64,000 nucleotides of DNA from assembly GCA_013375475.1 (NCBI GenBank), contig JABXKD010000002.1, positions 32,001-96,000 of the forward strand. Reading direction: 5' to 3'. Source of the stretch: Promethearchaeota archaeon. Its GTDB lineage: Archaea; Asgardarchaeota; Lokiarchaeia; Sigyniarchaeales; SOKP01. Position numbers and translations under genes: made by a program. The notes below the pieces were generated by a model, which was not told the DNA's origin, ran no database searches, and saw nothing but the letters and a program-made list of their open reading frames with translations. This document shows, in pieces, positions 36,577-41,421 of the stretch (positions are counted from its first letter, which is position 1; every line of letters starts with the position of its first letter).

Positions 36577-37284
36577 ATGAAAAAAACCAAAATTTTAAGA
36601 GATTATTCTAATATCGTTGTATATTCTAAAATTCACTTGAAAATATTACAGGAAAAAAGAGAACGCTCTAAATTTCTTTTGGATATGTTCGTTAAAGAGG
36701 GTTTGAATCCATTTATATATGGTAGTATTGCTCGAGGCGATATTCATAAAGATAGTGATATAGATATTGTTCTTGTACAATCAATAGCTCCATATCAAGT
36801 CGAGATTATACTTGATAGACATGGTTACAATAATTATTTTAGAGAAATTATAATGGCAACACCTGCTGATACCGTAAAACTCTACATATACTTAAACGAG
36901 TTAGAGAGTATTACAATTCCATTATCTAAATTTGACAAAAAATCAAAAGAATTTTATGATTTTGGAGGGAAAATCAACTTAGACCAAATATATAATAATA
37001 TTAGAGTGCCTGGAATCGATAAAAGGTTAGTATTGATTCAACCCATTAGTAACGGATATAAAGAATCTTCGATTATTGGAAACGAACATTTAGCAGCAAG
37101 GCAATTAAATGTTAGCATTGATTTGATTAATGAAAGAAAAAGAGTCCTATTAAAGAGAGAAAAATTCGGAAAAACTGGTGTATTTTTAAAGAGACAAATT
37201 GAAATGAACGAAAGTACCGAAGATGTGTTAAAAAAATTAATTAAGAAAAATTCGATTGCGAGAAAAAAGTTGATATCACGATGA
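36577..37284 (+). CDS. Archaeal nucleotidyltransferase domain protein
   Basis: YGSIARGDIHKDSDIDI, EFYDFGG, RVPGIDKRL, GKTGVF. Confidence 0.85.
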   Translation: MKKTKILRDYSNIVVYSKIHLKILQEKRERSKFLLDMFVKEGLNPFIYGSIARGDIHKDSDIDIVLVQSIAPYQVEIILDRHGYNNYFREIIMATPADTVKLYIYLNELESITIPLSKFDKKSKEFYDFGGKINLDQIYNNIRVPGIDKRLVLIQPISNGYKESSIIGNEHLAARQLNVSIDLINERKRVLLKREKFGKTGVFLKRQIEMNESTEDVLKKLIKKNSIARKKLISR

Positions 37285-38432
37285 GAGCGCCAGTGATTGT
37301 AGAATCGAAAGCAAACACATTTTACTTAAAGAAGAAAGGAATTTCTAAAGGATGTCAGCAGTGTTTAAGGGGTACTAAAGCAGTATTATTTCTTAATGGA
37401 ATCTGTCAAAATCCAAGACATTGTTGGTGGTATTGTCCGATCTCTAAAAAACGAAAAGGAAAGAAAGATACTTACATAAATGAGATCAAAATATCTTCTA
37501 AAGAACAGATACTACAAGAACTCAAAGCTATTAACGCCAAAGGAATTAGTATTACGGGCGGGGACCCATTATTTGAGCCAAACTTAAAAAAGACATTGGA
37601 ATACATTAAGTTTATTAAAGAAAACAAAGGTAGTAAGTTTCACATTCACTTATATACTAACGGTCTTAATTTTAACGAAGAAATTGCTAAAAAACTCGCT
37701 CAAGCGGGTTTAGACGAAATTAGGTTCAACCCATCAAAAGAAAATTGGGATGTGATAAAATACGCCTTAAATATGGGTATTTCTGTAGGAGCTGAAGTTC
37801 CTGTAATTCCAGAAGTGGAATATATTGACAATTTGAAAAATAAAATTGTTTACTTGAATGAAATCGGTGCAGATTTTATTAATTTGAATGAATTTGAGTA
37901 TTGCTCACCAAACAGCCAAAACCTCAAGGATCGAAATTTTAAGTTAGAGTCAGGCACAATTGCATCCGTGGAGAATAGTAAAAAATGCGCAATTCAACTT
38001 GTTAAAGATGTCGCTCCAAAAGTTTCAATAAAAATTCACTTTTGCACGATTAAAGCTAAGGACTATTGGCAGTTGAAAGAAAGATATTTAAGGCGAGCAA
38101 AAACGATTAAATTGCCGTATGAACAAGTTACGAGTGAAGGTTTACTATTATTTGCTCAAATAGAAGGAGAGAAAAAGGACATTAAAGAATTTTATACTAT
38201 TTTATTAAATGAAATAAATATCCCGAAGAAATTTTTATCCTACCAAGAAACGAATATTAAATTATCAATAGCATTTGCTATTGAGGAAACATTAATAGAT
38301 TTATTAACTCAAAAAAATTTAAAAGGATACGCTGTAGAAATGACCCCGTTTCGAGAAGAAAAACACCAACAAATAACGGAAAAAACACCAATTATGTTAT
38401 TCAAAGAAGAGATGGGCTTAAATGAGAATTGA
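37281..38432 (+). CDS. Radical SAM protein (conserved archaeal family)
   Basis: KGCQQC, CQNPRHCWWYC, ITGGDP, HLYTNG, GLDEIRF, FINLNEFE. Confidence 0.88.
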   Translation: MRAPVIVESKANTFYLKKKGISKGCQQCLRGTKAVLFLNGICQNPRHCWWYCPISKKRKGKKDTYINEIKISSKEQILQELKAINAKGISITGGDPLFEPNLKKTLEYIKFIKENKGSKFHIHLYTNGLNFNEEIAKKLAQAGLDEIRFNPSKENWDVIKYALNMGISVGAEVPVIPEVEYIDNLKNKIVYLNEIGADFINLNEFEYCSPNSQNLKDRNFKLESGTIASVENSKKCAIQLVKDVAPKVSIKIHFCTIKAKDYWQLKERYLRRAKTIKLPYEQVTSEGLLLFAQIEGEKKDIKEFYTILLNEINIPKKFLSYQETNIKLSIAFAIEETLIDLLTQKNLKGYAVEMTPFREEKHQQITEKTPIMLFKEEMGLNEN

Positions 38433-38868
38433 CACAGTTGAACTTAAAGACTTAGATGAAATTTACAATTTGGAAAGAAAATTTTTCAAGAAAGATGCTT
38501 TTTCAAAAGATTTAATTTTTAATTTGATTATGAAGAATTTTTTTTTTTTTAAGCTGATTGATGGAGAATTATCAAATGAAATTATTGGATTCATCATAAT
38601 TATTCAGGATCGAGAGGATAGAGTAAATTTGATTAATTTTTTAATCAGAAAACGCAACCAAAATAAGGGCTGCGGAACTTACCTTTTGAGCTATACAATA
38701 AAGAAAGTTAAAAAAATGCCTAATATAAAAACAATTGTTTTGAACGTGAACTCCAAAAATAAAGTAGCTATAAAATTGTATCAGAAATTTAACTTCCGAA
38801 TCGTTCAGAAAATTGAAAACTACTATCGGCAAAAGGAAGGCGCCTACTTAATGGTTTTGAACATTTAA
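38422..38868 (+). CDS. RimI/Ard1-like GNAT N-acetyltransferase
   Basis: QNKGCG, NKVAIKLYQKFNF, NYY...AYLM. Confidence 0.88.
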   Translation: MRIDTVELKDLDEIYNLERKFFKKDAFSKDLIFNLIMKNFFFFKLIDGELSNEIIGFIIIIQDREDRVNLINFLIRKRNQNKGCGTYLLSYTIKKVKKMPNIKTIVLNVNSKNKVAIKLYQKFNFRIVQKIENYYRQKEGAYLMVLNI

Positions 38869-38977
38869 TCTTTTTCTAAAAACCAAGACTTATAAATAAA
38901 TTCTATTATAAATTTTGTACAGAACGCATTGATAATGTGCTCAAAAAAGGAAACAAAATTATAAATATTGAGTGATT

Positions 38978-39133
38978 ATGATGTCCTTAGGTGACGAATT
39001 AAAAGAACAAATAAAAAAAGGTGTGACTCTCCAAAAGGTTGACGAGGCAGACATGAAACAACGTGAAGAAGAGAAAAAGAAACGAATGGAAGAATTAGAA
39101 AAAGTAAAAGCAGCCTTAGGAGCAAAAGATTAA
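38978..39133 (+). CDS. 51-aa micro-protein with a WH2-like motif and charged helix (below the ORF-track cutoff)
   Basis: MMSLGDELKEQIKKGVTLQKVDEADMKQREEEKKKRMEELEKVKAALGAKD; fills an intergenic gap, upstream TTATAAA and GTGA, downstream T-tracts. Confidence 0.75.
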   Translation: MMSLGDELKEQIKKGVTLQKVDEADMKQREEEKKKRMEELEKVKAALGAKD

Positions 39134-39279
39134 ATTTTTTATGTTTTTCGTATTTTATTATTTTTTTTCTTTATATTTTGTAAGAAGACAGACTTAGATA
39201 CTATTTATCTTCTTGTTTATACTATACTTATTTATACAAGTTAATTATGCAAATTTGAAATTGGGAGTCTGTTATACCG

Positions 39280-40353
39280 TTGAAAATTCTGGAAATAGAT
39301 AAAAAGAACGAAAAAGTGTCTGTAAGGACTGAAGATTTAAACGATTTATGGACGCTATATAATCTTATTGATAAAAATGACGAAGTTTCAGCAAGAACTA
39401 ACAGAAGGATTGTGTTAAAGGAAGGCTCTAAGGGAGAAAGAAAACAAATGAATTTAATACTAAATGTTGAATCTGTCTCTTTCCACGAATTTACAAGTAG
39501 ATTAAGGGTAAAAGGAACTATATTAGAAGGTCCAGACGATTTCGTCACTTATGGGACATATCATACGTTCAATATAGAACCTGGACAAAAGTTAACAATA
39601 AAGAAGACTAAGTGGTTAAAGAGCGAAATAAAAAGCCTTAAAAAACCATCCACTTTCAAAGCAGATTTTAATATGTTAATGATAGCAATCGAAACTGGAC
39701 TAGCCACTATAGCTCTAATAACAAATTTTAGTCATAATAGGATTGCTACTATTAAAAAAAATATACCTGGTAAAAGATATGAGCAATCATTTAGAAATAA
39801 AGCTTATGAAGAATTTTTTAGTGATATAAATAGAATTTTAATCGAAAATATAAAAAGCGTTAAGATAAATACTATAATAATTTGTGGTCCTGGAAGCACG
39901 AAGGAACGTTTTAATCAATTTATTATCGAGAAAGCCCAAATTCCCAATCTTCCAAAAATTTATTGCATTCAAGCTAGCTCTGGAACAGAAAGTGCTATTT
40001 TAGAAACCTTGAAATCGAAAGAACTAAAAAGCTTAAAGGAAAATGTAAAGGTTCTGCTGGAAACTGAGAAAATTGAAGAAATAATGCAATTATTTGCTAC
40101 AAATTCCGACCTTATAGCTATTGGATTTAACGAGATCTCTCACGCAATTGAAAAAGGTGCTGTAAAAGATTTGTTTTGCGCCGATATTTTAATAAGAGGA
40201 GCTTCGAAAGAAAAAAAATTACAAATCGAGAGTATTTTAAACGGAGTTGAAAAAGTAGGTGGAATTATTCACATCTTAAGTAGTGAACACCCAACTGGGC
40301 AACAGATAATTGATTTGGGGTCTCTCGTTGCAATTTTAAGGTATAAAATTTAA
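39280..40353 (+). CDS. pelA: mRNA surveillance protein Pelota
   Basis: DLWTLYNLI, RLRVKG.I..GP, GTYHT, HPTGQQI...AILRY. Confidence 0.94.
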   Translation: MKILEIDKKNEKVSVRTEDLNDLWTLYNLIDKNDEVSARTNRRIVLKEGSKGERKQMNLILNVESVSFHEFTSRLRVKGTILEGPDDFVTYGTYHTFNIEPGQKLTIKKTKWLKSEIKSLKKPSTFKADFNMLMIAIETGLATIALITNFSHNRIATIKKNIPGKRYEQSFRNKAYEEFFSDINRILIENIKSVKINTIIICGPGSTKERFNQFIIEKAQIPNLPKIYCIQASSGTESAILETLKSKELKSLKENVKVLLETEKIEEIMQLFATNSDLIAIGFNEISHAIEKGAVKDLFCADILIRGASKEKKLQIESILNGVEKVGGIIHILSSEHPTGQQIIDLGSLVAILRYKI

Positions 40354-40383
40354 AACACCTAAACATATAATATCTCTCTAATA

Positions 40384-41421
40384 ATGAATGAAAACATTGA
40401 ATACATAGATGCTAAATCAGATATACCCTTAATGGGGGTAGATTTTCTTGGTGTAATTGATAGAGGGACTAATGTTATAGAGCTTAAACCTCTTACGATG
40501 TGCAATTTGCGATGCAAGTATTGTTTTGTCAGTTCTGGTGATTATAACACTAATTTTGTCGTTAATTCATATCACTTAGTTGAAAAGGTTAAAGAAATTG
40601 TTAAAATAAAGGGAAATCATGACCTCGAAATTCATCTTGCGCCGTATGGTGAAATGCTCCTTTATAATGAATTACCTGAACTACTAAAAAGCCTTTCAGA
40701 AATCACAGGTGTGTCGACTGTATCTATGCAAAGCAATGGTTTGTTGCTTTCGAAAAATATTATTGAAAAATTAAAAAAGAACGATCTTACAAGAATTAAC
40801 ATCAGCCTAAATAGTTTAAAAGAGGAAACTGACTGTTATCTTTGTAATTGTACACATTACGATGTGAATAGGCTTTTAGGAAATATATATACTCTTTTGA
40901 ATAGCAACATTCAAGTTCTGATTGCACCAGTTTGGTTTCCAGGAGAAAATGAAAAGGACATTGAAGAAATAATAGAATTAGTCCTAAAATTAAGACGTGA
41001 GGGCTTTTCTAAACAGCAAATTCAAATTGGCATTCAAAAATATTTAATCTATAAGACGGGTAGAACATTAAAAAAAATAAAACCAAAATCGTGGGGTTAT
41101 TTTTATTTACAATTGTCAAGGTTAGAAAAAAGGTACGGAATCAAATTGAAACTTGGACCAAAAGATTTTGGCATTCATAAGAGACCTCAAGTTTCCACTT
41201 TCGGTCTTAAAAGAGGAGACCTGATCAAAATCAAAATCGTCTCAAGGGGAAGATGGATGAATGAGTGTATAGGAAAAATCAACGGTAGTCATGGAATTAA
41301 AGTTTTATTGAGAAAACCAATAATTTTTTCCGAAGAACTAATAGGAAAAGTTATAGTAGCAAAAATTATTAAAGCAAATTATCGAGATAATATACTTACT
41401 GCTCTATTTCCTTATAATTAG
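40384..41421 (+). CDS. Radical SAM protein with C-terminal beta domain
   Basis: GVIDRGTNVIE, CNLRCKYC, MQSNG, RINISL. Confidence 0.88.
   Translation: MNENIEYIDAKSDIPLMGVDFLGVIDRGTNVIELKPLTMCNLRCKYCFVSSGDYNTNFVVNSYHLVEKVKEIVKIKGNHDLEIHLAPYGEMLLYNELPELLKSLSEITGVSTVSMQSNGLLLSKNIIEKLKKNDLTRINISLNSLKEETDCYLCNCTHYDVNRLLGNIYTLLNSNIQVLIAPVWFPGENEKDIEEIIELVLKLRREGFSKQQIQIGIQKYLIYKTGRTLKKIKPKSWGYFYLQLSRLEKRYGIKLKLGPKDFGIHKRPQVSTFGLKRGDLIKIKIVSRGRWMNECIGKINGSHGIKVLLRKPIIFSEELIGKVIVAKIIKANYRDNILTALFPYN

What the first reader, a model, noticed from the sequence alone, without database searches (positions are those of the whole stretch)
38978..39133. Unannotated 51-aa stand-alone WH2-like (actin-monomer-binding) micro-protein
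Seen: SLGDELKEQIKKGVTLQKVD followed by an E/K/R-rich helix, in its own intergenic gap with a TATA-like box and T-rich tail. Established: WH2 motifs are an amphipathic helix ending QI(R/K)xG, then two residues and L(K/R)K(V/T), as in N-WASP ALLDQIREGAQLKKV; spacing here is identical. Inference: a thymosin-like actin sequestering protein, or, if the tail oligomerises, a minimal nucleator for Asgard actin. Gene callers would miss it.
Basis: partly seen in the sequence, partly recalled or inferred. Interest (0 to 1): 0.85.

Follow-up and report, generated by a model that had tools for sequence, protein, structure and literature searches.

The report
Conserved WH2-like micro-protein of Asgard archaea
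A real, strongly conserved 50-residue archaeal gene encodes one copy of a small module that resembles the actin-monomer-binding WH2/thymosin motif of eukaryotes, and that elsewhere occurs as ten-fold arrays and fused to profilin, so it may be an unrecognised regulator of archaeal actin.

Summary
It has its own conserved promoter and oligo-T terminator, is intact in 20 of 20 same-genus loci, has dN/dS 0.14, and matches 119 public proteins of 44-52 aa. These are already called as "hypothetical protein", so gene callers do not miss it. It is one free copy of a 46-residue module confined to one order of its phylum (f1 63/68, f2 7/7, all other families 1/225). The module also occurs as arrays of 2-10 copies and fused to Asgard profilin, Ras-type GTPases, LRRs and RHH domains. 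Pfam's WH2, thymosin and TMA7 models do not detect the window protein, so formal membership fails. In the other direction, the family profile ranks WH2-actin chains first among natural PDB sequences (N-WASP 5e-6, Spire 6e-4). Against 1.84 billion proteins it retrieves 20 proteins that pass Pfam's WH2 threshold, and one family member (P0275) passes it as well. Best reading (about 0.55): a WH2/beta-thymosin-like actin binder. Rivals: a generic charged helical adaptor, or a translation-linked protein (pelota synteny). None of five literature searches found a free-standing WH2-like protein reported in Asgard archaea.

The parts
38878..38911 (+). Conserved promoter element (BRE/TATA-like, core CTTATAAATAAA at about 38889-38900), roughly 65-100 nt upstream of the start codon
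   Evidence: Present almost unchanged in all 20 same-genus loci, including the most divergent ones. The promoter role is inferred from its position and its archaeal TATA-like sequence.
38970..38975 (+). Shine-Dalgarno-like GAGTGA (GAGGT in most relatives) just upstream of the start
   Evidence: Upstream sequences lined up. The function is inferred.
38978..39133 (+). Micro-protein gene, 51 aa plus stop (the start may be the second ATG at 38981, giving 50 aa)
   Evidence: 119 homologues. Intact in 20/20 loci with dN/dS 0.14. Scores 76.5 bits against the module HMM, the only strong copy in this genome.
38987..39040 (+). WH2-like part: amphipathic helix (residues 4-13; L4, L8, I12), G15, then an extended L18-x-K20-V21
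   Evidence: The AF2 model has H4-13 followed by a loop at 14-22. I12, K14, G15, L18 and K20 are invariant. HMMER aligns it in register with N-WASP and Spire WH2 sequences.
39044..39124 (+). C-terminal 27-residue charged helix (residues 23-49); REEEKKKRMEELEKVK-AL is nearly invariant and its end is amphipathic (M37, L40, V43, L47)
   Evidence: AF2 H23-49 with pLDDT 84-91. Conservation. It has no counterpart in the Pfam WH2 model.
39134..39175 (+). Oligo-T runs (T6, T5, T4, T8) directly after the stop: an archaeal terminator-like tail
   Evidence: Read directly. Conserved in 18 of 20 loci. The function is inferred.
38422..38868 (+). Upstream neighbour: GNAT N-acetyltransferase (context only, not shown to be functionally linked)
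   Evidence: Pfam Acetyltransf_1, 48 bits. Syntenic in 20/20 same-genus loci and in families f2 and f3.
39280..40353 (+). Downstream neighbour: pelota (eRF1 domains 1-3) (context only)
   Evidence: Pfam eRF1_1, eRF1_2 and eRF1_3. The synteny is kept in f1, f2 and f3 but not in f4.

Best explanation
The gene encodes a free-standing copy of a 46-residue module specific to one order of Asgard archaea. The module has three parts: a three-turn amphipathic helix, a Gly-capped extended segment with invariant L-x-K-V, and a long charged helix. I propose that it binds actin (the Lokiactin-type actin of this genome) in the way a WH2/beta-thymosin does. [quoted passage not shown] As a single unit it would buffer or sequester monomers. 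The 2-10x tandem arrays and the profilin fusions of sister lineages would gather or deliver several monomers, which is nucleator-like. SHOWN: the gene is real and under purifying selection; the module architecture and its distribution; a statistically specific sequence resemblance to WH2; fusion to profilin; conservation of the actin cleft residues. INFERRED: every step of actin binding and its consequences.
For: (1) Family profile A4 against 177,635 distinct PDB sequences: 7 of the 12 hits at E<=10 are WH2 chains solved with actin (N-WASP 3m3n_W 5.2e-6, Spire 3mn7_S 5.9e-4, N-WASP 2vcp_D 2.6e-3, Spire 3ue5_B 0.12 and 3mn5_S 0.25, MIM 2d1k_C 0.43, N-WASP 6uhc_H 2.9). They align in register, LleeIkkGvsLkKvde against LLDQIREGAQLKKVEQ. 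The profile built from single-unit proteins alone (A1) also puts 3m3n_W first, at 5.4e-4. (2) The same profile against 1.84 billion representatives gives 91 hits at E<=1e-3. I Pfam-scanned all 91, and 21 reach Pfam WH2's gathering score. Twenty of these are longer proteins that match only profile positions about 4-25, with WH2 scores of 27-107 bits. The 21st is a single-unit family member, P0275 (23.7 bits against a cutoff of 23.1), which also has the family's C-terminal helix. (3) Domain fusion: P0287, P0290, P0305, L041:3998-4753 and L043:3517-4293 carry an N-terminal Asgard profilin followed by 1-4 modules. P0305 matches 5zza_P at 9.6e-10, 7pbh_A ('Profilin') at 5e-8, and 5yed and 5zzb; entry 5zza also contains skeletal actin. 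(4) Tandem arrays of 2, 4, 6, 7, 9 and 10 units with an exact 46-residue period, whose units read LLEEIxxAPQLKKVD. AF2 gives the 10x protein no compact fold (pTM 0.17), only helices broken at each GxxLKKVD. (5) The genome has an actin scoring 442 bits. The residues that PMC10907219 names as the pocket for a WH2-like helix (Y143, I345, L346, L349; passages read) correspond, by my own offset mapping, to Y150, I352, L353 and L356, which are invariant in 30 Asgard actins. (6) AF2 monomer model: helix 4-13, loop 14-22, helix 23-49. (7) A lead only: the nearest cluster with a Pfam family in the ESM Atlas is 52% PF01290 thymosin, score 0.83.
Against: Pfam WH2 (PF02205) does not report the window protein even at E<=10, does not find it in the six-frame scan of its own genome, and matches only 2 of the 51 module sequences (best E 0.031). 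DUF3006 (20 of 51) and NPM1-C (7 of 51) are matched by more members, all below threshold. Pfam Thymosin also fails. A six-frame WH2 scan of 121 genomes of the order found nothing at E<=0.01, although it found nothing in the control genomes either. Each single motif match is worth only about 7-12 bits, and significance comes from summing repeats. Designed TIM barrels scored about the same with profile A1. The single-unit proteins of this family have K or Q where WH2 has its second Leu. The most conserved stretch, the C-terminal helix, has no WH2 counterpart. The module is also fused to RHH, Ras-GTPase and LRR domains, which are not actin-specific. The GNAT-micro-pelota synteny hints at translation. 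The module is confined to one order, so it may be a convergent invention. No binding data of any kind were obtained.
Confidence: 0.55

Rival explanations
1. The module is a generic charged helical adaptor or oligomerisation element (a short helix plus an ER/K-type single helix with an amphipathic end). It mediates self-association or binding to a non-actin partner, and its likeness to WH2 is convergent or coincidental.
For: The C-terminal REEEKKKRMEELEKVK-AL is the best-conserved part and is absent from WH2. The module is fused to unrelated domains (RHH, Ras GTPase, LRR, coiled coil, a TM segment). Pfam WH2 and Thymosin do not recognise the window protein. E/K-rich helices attract weak matches to many families.
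Against: The invariant positions I12, G15, L18 and K20 are not compositional. Every one of the 20 proteins outside the module family that the profile retrieved is Pfam WH2-positive, rather than a mix of coiled-coil proteins. The profilin fusions point specifically to actin.
Confidence: 0.28
2. It is a small translation-associated or ribosome-associated protein that works with pelota (ribosome rescue) and the neighbouring acetyltransferase, comparable to small E/K-rich eukaryotic ribosome-associated factors.
For: The order rSAM-GNAT-micro-pelota-rSAM is kept in 20/20 same-genus loci, and GNAT-micro-pelota also in families f2 and f3 (L033, L035, L036, L037). The protein is very small, highly charged and apparently served by a strong promoter.
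Against: The gene has its own promoter and terminator. The linkage is lost in family f4 (L032, L034) and in L031 and L040. Pfam TMA7 gives no match in this genome. Ten-fold tandem arrays and profilin, GTPase or LRR fusions are not expected of a ribosomal factor.
Confidence: 0.12
3. It is not a protein-coding gene on this strand: either the antisense frame is the gene, or the ORF is a chance product of AT-rich sequence.
For: One antisense frame is open in 19-20 of 20 loci, with dN/dS 0.24 and amino-acid identity 0.84 against 0.85 for the sense frame.
Against: The sense frame has a conserved ATG and stop about 50 codons apart, a conserved upstream promoter and a downstream T-tail, and the lowest dN/dS of all frames (0.14). 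The antisense frame has no conserved start and variable length. The 479-497-aa proteins are repeats of the sense-frame sequence.
Confidence: 0.02

Closest known systems
WH2 (WASP-homology 2) motif, Pfam PF02205 (N-WASP, Spire, MIM)
   Same: A short amphipathic helix, a small residue (Gly), then L-[K/x]-K-[V/I] at identical spacing. HMMER aligns it in register with N-WASP and Spire WH2 sequences. It occurs singly, in tandem arrays and attached to many different domains, as I recall WH2 does. The profile retrieves Pfam-positive WH2 proteins.
   Different: The window protein fails Pfam's threshold. It has K or Q at the second Leu position, and LQKV in place of LKKV. There is an obligatory, highly conserved 27-residue charged helix after the motif. 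The unit is 46 residues long and is specific to one archaeal order. Actin binding has not been shown.
Beta-thymosin family, Pfam PF01290 (small stand-alone actin-sequestering peptides and their multi-repeat relatives)
   Same: A stand-alone peptide of about 50 aa with the layout helix, LKK-type linker, second helix. Multi-repeat versions exist. The nearest ESM Atlas cluster with a Pfam family is a thymosin cluster (a lead only).
   Different: No Pfam Thymosin match. The C-terminal helix is much longer and more charged. That thymosins sequester actin through both helices is my recollection and comes from no call.
WH2-like LKKT-type linker motif inside Asgard two-domain gelsolins (LVDV, LKDV, LRRV)
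   Same: It is the only 'WH2-like' element reported so far in Asgard archaea, and in crystal structures it contacts actin (PMC9433394, passages read; bioRxiv 10.1101/2025.11.30.690169, passages and section 9 read).
   Different: It is a four-residue linker within a gelsolin fold, not a free helix-plus-LKKV module, and it is unrelated in sequence context to the family described here.
Trypanosomatid profilin with an inserted WH2-like helix (Leishmania profilin)
   Same: It combines profilin and a WH2-like actin-cleft-binding helix in one polypeptide, and both contact the same actin monomer (PMC10907219, abstract and passages read). The profilin-module fusions found here combine the same two elements.
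   Different: There the helix is an insertion inside the profilin fold. Here 1-4 complete modules follow the profilin domain and are themselves followed by a further conserved domain of about 50 aa.
Arcadin-2 on crenactin and ParR on ParM (prokaryotic peptides that bind the actin-fold hydrophobic groove)
   Same: These are prokaryotic precedents for a short helix docking in the same 'hot spot' groove that thymosin and WH2 use (PMC5173319, passage read). That ParR is an RHH adaptor is my recollection, not from the passage; if so it parallels the RHH-module fusions seen here.
   Different: No sequence similarity to either was tested or found, and they partner with different actin homologues.

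Membership tests
WH2 motif (Pfam PF02205) | Scores at or above Pfam's gathering threshold (23.1 bits) | tested here: not met
   The window protein gives no WH2 match at E<=10 and is not found in the six-frame scan of its own genome. Only 2 of 51 module sequences match, best E 0.031. Within the wider family, P0275 passes (23.7 bits); P0254 scores 16.5, P0243 16.8 and the L022 protein 11.3 bits.
WH2 motif (Pfam PF02205) | N-terminal amphipathic helix of about three turns that presents hydrophobic residues | tested here: met
   The AF2 model has a helix at residues 4-13 (block pLDDT about 70), with L4, L8 and I12 on one face. The repeat units have the LLxEI form.
WH2 motif (Pfam PF02205) | LKKT/LKKV-type motif at a fixed distance after the helix | tested here: met
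   L18 and K20 are invariant and V21 is predominant. The window protein has LQKV. Canonical LKKV occurs in family f4 proteins and in the array units. The register is identical to N-WASP in the HMMER alignments.
WH2 motif (Pfam PF02205) | Reciprocal sequence relationship to accepted WH2 domains | tested here: met
   The family profile puts WH2-actin chains at the top of the natural PDB hits. It also retrieves 20 proteins outside the module family that pass Pfam's WH2 threshold, among its 91 hits from 1.84 billion sequences. Significance depends on summing several motifs of about 10 bits each.
WH2 motif (Pfam PF02205) | Binds the actin monomer in the cleft between subdomains 1 and 3 | not testable with these tools
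   The one complex-prediction job was accepted but not folded. There is no biochemistry. The only supporting fact is that the cleft residues are conserved in the genome's own actin.
Beta-thymosin (Pfam PF01290) | Scores at or above Pfam's threshold (24.8 bits) | tested here: not met
   The ORF gives no match in the six-frame scan of its own genome, and Thymosin is not among the families matched by the A4 members.
Beta-thymosin (Pfam PF01290) | Stand-alone peptide of about 40-50 aa with helix, LKK linker and a second helix | tested here: met
   51 aa, modelled as H4-13, loop, H23-49. That this layout defines thymosins is my recollection.
TMA7 (Pfam PF09072), a translation-machinery-associated small protein | Match to the family model | tested here: not met
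   0 matches at E<=10 in the window's genome, and no match in the Pfam scans.

The most novel reading that the evidence does not exclude
One order of Asgard archaea has a whole, so far undescribed layer of actin regulation built on a WH2/beta-thymosin-like module. Free 50-aa copies would buffer Lokiactin monomers. The 10x tandem arrays would nucleate or template filaments, as I recall Spire and Cobl doing in eukaryotes. Profilin-module fusions would hand monomers over. Ras-GTPase, LRR and RHH fusions would couple signalling or DNA to actin. The module would be either the archaeal ancestor of the eukaryotic WH2 motif or an independent invention of the same solution.
Probability: 0.3. Interest if true: 0.92.

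Novelty: new variant of a known kind. Interest (0 to 1): 0.8.

Why it matters
The literature I read names only profilins and gelsolins as regulators of Asgard actin. [quoted passage not shown] In eukaryotes, WH2 motifs are the common element of monomer-binding nucleators and nucleation-promoting factors (my general knowledge). A conserved WH2-like module that exists in free, tandem and profilin-fused forms in an actin-bearing Asgard order would provide a concrete candidate for a further class of Asgard actin regulator. It would also bear on whether WH2 predates eukaryotes. The idea can be tested directly: the peptide is short enough to synthesise, and family f2, which carries both the single-unit gene and the 10x array, includes complete single-contig genomes.

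Tried and rejected
The job was accepted and returned 'NOT FOLDED', because the tool does not pair a eukaryote-like chain with a microbial one. There is no verdict and I sought no other route.

RNA evidence: no RNA holder was listed for window:38400-40400.

Pfam scans for WH2, Thymosin and TMA7 on the ORF and on the genome gave no match. A six-frame WH2 scan of 121 genomes of the order gave 0 matches, but it also found nothing in the control genomes, so it is uninformative.

I considered a compact helical-repeat (solenoid) reading of the 10x protein. AF2 gave pTM 0.17 and mean pLDDT 58 with an 8-sequence alignment, which neither supports nor excludes it.

Gene neighbourhoods of the 10x arrays (YggS-like, Lrp-like, thermosome and zinc-ribbon proteins) and of the f4 single-unit genes (a longin-like 130-aa protein by eye, a MoxR-type ATPase plus VWA protein, and HypF) gave no actin link.

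I did not run an HHalign comparison against a WH2 alignment built from the retrieved hits, because those hits had been selected with the same profile and the test would be circular.

Full report
THE OBSERVATION. The + strand ORF at 38978-39133 exists as described and encodes MMSLGDELKEQIKKGVTLQKVDEADMKQREEEKKKRMEELEKVKAALGAKD. It lies between a GNAT acetyltransferase gene (38422-38868) and pelota (39280-40353), and radical-SAM genes lie outside those. The start may be the second ATG (38981). In 5 of 20 related loci the codon aligned with 38978 is ATT or ATA.

IS IT A GENE? Yes. A word-indexed search of 5.8 billion proteins returned 119 proteins of 44-52 aa (E from 8e-21 to 1e-7). Several are named 'hypothetical protein' in NCBI MAG records labelled Lokiarchaeota, Promethearchaeota, Thor-, Hermod- or Hodarchaeota. 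So gene callers do find this gene.

In whole genomes, 35 of 36 same-genus genomes have a match with no internal stop. In the 20 loci I fetched, the frame is intact in 20/20. The gene order rSAM-GNAT-micro-pelota-rSAM is kept in 20/20, and the micro-protein (73-100 % identity) is at least as conserved as GNAT (43-100 %).

Differences by codon position, pooled over all pairs of the 20 sequences, are 741/406/2196, and dN/dS is 0.14. These genomes are kin and not independent. One antisense frame is also open in 19-20 of 20 loci with dN/dS 0.24, because its third codon position coincides with the sense third position. It has no conserved start and varies from 55 to 70 codons.

The sense gene has a nearly invariant upstream element, AAAACCAAGACTTATAAATAAATTCTATTATAA, in 20/20 loci. 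Most loci also have a GAGGT-type Shine-Dalgarno-like site, and 18/20 have conserved oligo-T runs after the stop. No RNA run was listed for the locus, so expression is not shown.

WHAT IT IS MADE OF. In 33 aligned homologues, I12, K14, G15, L18, K20, K33, R36, E38, E39, K42, A46 and L47 are invariant, and the block REEEKKKRMEELEKVK-AL is nearly so. AlphaFold2 run with this alignment gives helix 4-13, a loop at 14-22 that carries G15 and L18-x-K20-V21, and helix 23-49, with mean pLDDT 78.

THE MODULE AND ITS ARCHITECTURES. In family f2 of the same order, open frames of about 490-505 aa matched the 51-aa query many times. Two of them (L021:2309-3748, 479 aa; L022:2361-3827, 488 aa) consist of about ten units with an exact 46-residue period. 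Each unit spans essentially the whole micro-protein profile and reads, for example, LLEEISQAPQLKKVDEDDLKKYQKEKQ.

A profile of single units plus repeat units (A4) was searched by HMMER against 1.84 billion representatives and found 91 proteins at E<=1e-3. They include forms with 1 unit (42-77 aa) and with 2, 4, 6, 7, 9 and 10 units.

Other architectures are these. Asgard profilin plus 1-4 modules plus a conserved C-terminal domain of about 50 aa occurs in P0287, P0290, P0305, L041:3998-4753 and L043:3517-4293. A Ras-family GTPase (99-113 bits) plus module plus RHH occurs in L045 and L046. LRR (130 bits) plus module occurs in L044. A coiled coil plus module occurs in L042. P0326 has a hydrophobic N-terminus, a module and the same C-terminal domain.

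The profilin assignment is below Pfam's threshold (16.6-21.6 bits against 25) but is confirmed against solved structures. P0305 matches 5zza_P at 9.6e-10, 7pbh_A 'Profilin' at 5e-8, and 5yed_A and 5zzb_A. Entry 5zza also holds skeletal actin.

The window's own genome has only the micro-ORF (76.5 bits) and a weak relative, an RHH-like protein with a module-like tail at C241:9755-10159 (E 1.2e-3).

DISTRIBUTION. With A4 over 301 genomes of the phylum, matches at E<=1e-3 occur in f1 63/68, in f2 7/7, and in all other families together 1/225 (one hit at 6e-4). Families f3 and f4 of the same order also have the gene. The module is therefore specific to one order in the genomes searched. The varied phylum names in NCBI records are the submitters' labels.

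IS IT WH2? Forward tests fail. Pfam PF02205 reports nothing for the window protein at E<=10, does not find it in the six-frame scan of its genome, and matches only 2 of the 51 A4 members (best E 0.031). DUF3006 (20 members) and NPM1-C (7 members) are hit more often, all below threshold. Thymosin and TMA7 also fail. A WH2 scan of 121 genomes of the order gave nothing, but it found nothing in the control genomes either.

Reverse tests succeed. Profile A1 (single units only) against the PDB puts the N-WASP tandem-WH2 chain 3m3n_W first (5.4e-4). MIM (0.29) and N-WASP 2vcp_D (0.89) come lower, interleaved with designed TIM barrels. With the broader A4, 7 of 12 hits at E<=10 are WH2 chains (N-WASP 5.2e-6, 2.6e-3 and 2.9; Spire 5.9e-4, 0.12 and 0.25; MIM 0.43), all in the same register.

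Of the 91 representative hits, all of which I scanned with Pfam (30, 61), 21 reach the WH2 gathering score. Twenty are longer proteins matched only over profile positions about 4-25, often in 2-10 stretches. The 21st, P0275 (73 aa), is a true family member whose ELMNEIQQGVKLKKVDPDE scores 23.7 bits and is followed by the family's REEEKRKRSEELKKIAERI helix. The ten proteins that lack WH2 are all module-family proteins as judged from their sequences.

So the N-terminal 20 residues of the module are, in a statistically specific way, a WH2-like motif. But each motif match is worth only about 7-12 bits, and homology cannot be separated from convergence. The ESM Atlas gives a thymosin cluster as the nearest cluster with a Pfam family (score 0.83, a lead only).

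THE PARTNER. The genome encodes four actin-family proteins, and the best scores 442 bits. This 381-aa actin aligns end to end with eukaryotic actins. Y150, I352, L353 and L356 are invariant in 30 Asgard actins. By my own offset mapping they correspond to Y143, I345, L346 and L349, the pocket that PMC10907219 describes for a WH2-like helix.

Actin binding therefore remains untested.

STRUCTURE OF THE ARRAY. AF2 on the 479-aa protein (8-sequence alignment) gives pTM 0.17 and mean pLDDT 58. The model is a run of helices of about 37 residues, interrupted exactly at each GxxLKKVD segment, with no confident packing. This fits a string of linear motifs but cannot exclude a helical-repeat fold.

LITERATURE. 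Five full-text searches found no report of a free-standing or tandem WH2/thymosin-like protein in Asgard archaea. What is described is a four-residue WH2-like linker inside gelsolins (PMC9433394, passages; 10.1101/2025.11.30.690169, passages and section 9). [quoted passage not shown] The review PMC12050087 (passages) lists only profilin and gelsolin homologues for Asgards. PMC5173319 (passage) notes that thymosin, WH2, arcadin-2 and ParR all use the same hydrophobic groove of actin-fold proteins. The library does not include most subscription-journal papers.

VERDICT. The gene is real, conserved and already called in public records. Its product is one copy of an order-specific 46-residue module whose N-terminal half is WH2-like by reverse profile statistics and whose occurrence in profilin fusions and tandem arrays points to actin.

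I rate 'WH2/beta-thymosin-like actin binder' at about 0.55, 'generic charged adaptor unrelated to actin' at about 0.28, 'translation-linked small protein' at about 0.12, and 'not a gene' at about 0.02. It should not be filed as a Pfam WH2 member. It may well work like one.

Noticed in passing
L041:3998-4753 (-), L043:3517-4293 (+); proteins P0287, P0290, P0305, P0296, P0326: The profilin-module fusions end in a conserved domain of about 50 aa (consensus roughly I-x-I-K-x-K-F-x-T-D-Y-I-Y-D-D-F-Q-L-L-x-V-K-x-x-I-E-x-L-I-x-K-E-F-Q) that has no Pfam match. The same domain follows the module without profilin in P0296, and after a hydrophobic N-terminus in P0326.
   Followed up: partly
L045:3724-4782 (-), L046:3885-4838 (-), L044:2961-4013 (+): In the window's own family, Ras-family small GTPases are fused to the module and a ribbon-helix-helix domain, and a leucine-rich-repeat protein carries the module at its C-terminus. 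This would be a possible link from signalling to actin if the module does bind actin.
   Followed up: partly
G000 contig C241:9755-10159 (= L025:1259-1663, +): The window's genome has a 134-aa protein with an RHH-like N-terminus (Pfam RHH_1, 14.6 bits, below threshold) and a module-like tail, NYLEKPSEDTLKKREEEKKKR (E 1.2e-3). It sits downstream of a 280-aa ORF that I did not annotate. As I recall, ParR is an RHH adaptor that binds the ParM groove, which would be a parallel.
   Followed up: partly
window 38976-39125 (-) and the same place in L001-L020: An antisense frame stays open in 19-20 of 20 loci, with dN/dS 0.24. This is a side effect of the GAA/AAA-rich sense codons and of the shared third codon position, and it could mislead codon-based coding tests.
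   Followed up: yes
window 37281-41421: A five-gene block (radical SAM, GNAT, micro-ORF, pelota, radical SAM) is conserved in 20/20 same-genus loci, and most of it also in families f2 and f3. Why pelota is flanked by two radical-SAM enzymes is unexplained.
   Followed up: partly
L032:1276-1665 (+), L034:4907-5305 (+): In family f4 the single-unit gene lies tail to tail with a protein of about 130 aa (MLEAFFIFNKAGAVLFHH...) that looks longin- or roadblock-like by eye, and next to a MoxR-type AAA ATPase plus VWA protein pair. None of these was scanned against Pfam.
   Followed up: no
P0277, P0298, P0302: Several Pfam-positive WH2 hits end in an acidic tail containing a Trp (for example ...DDDFWND...ESDWD). 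From memory, this resembles the Arp2/3-binding C-terminus of WASP-type factors. Which organisms they come from could not be established.
   Followed up: no
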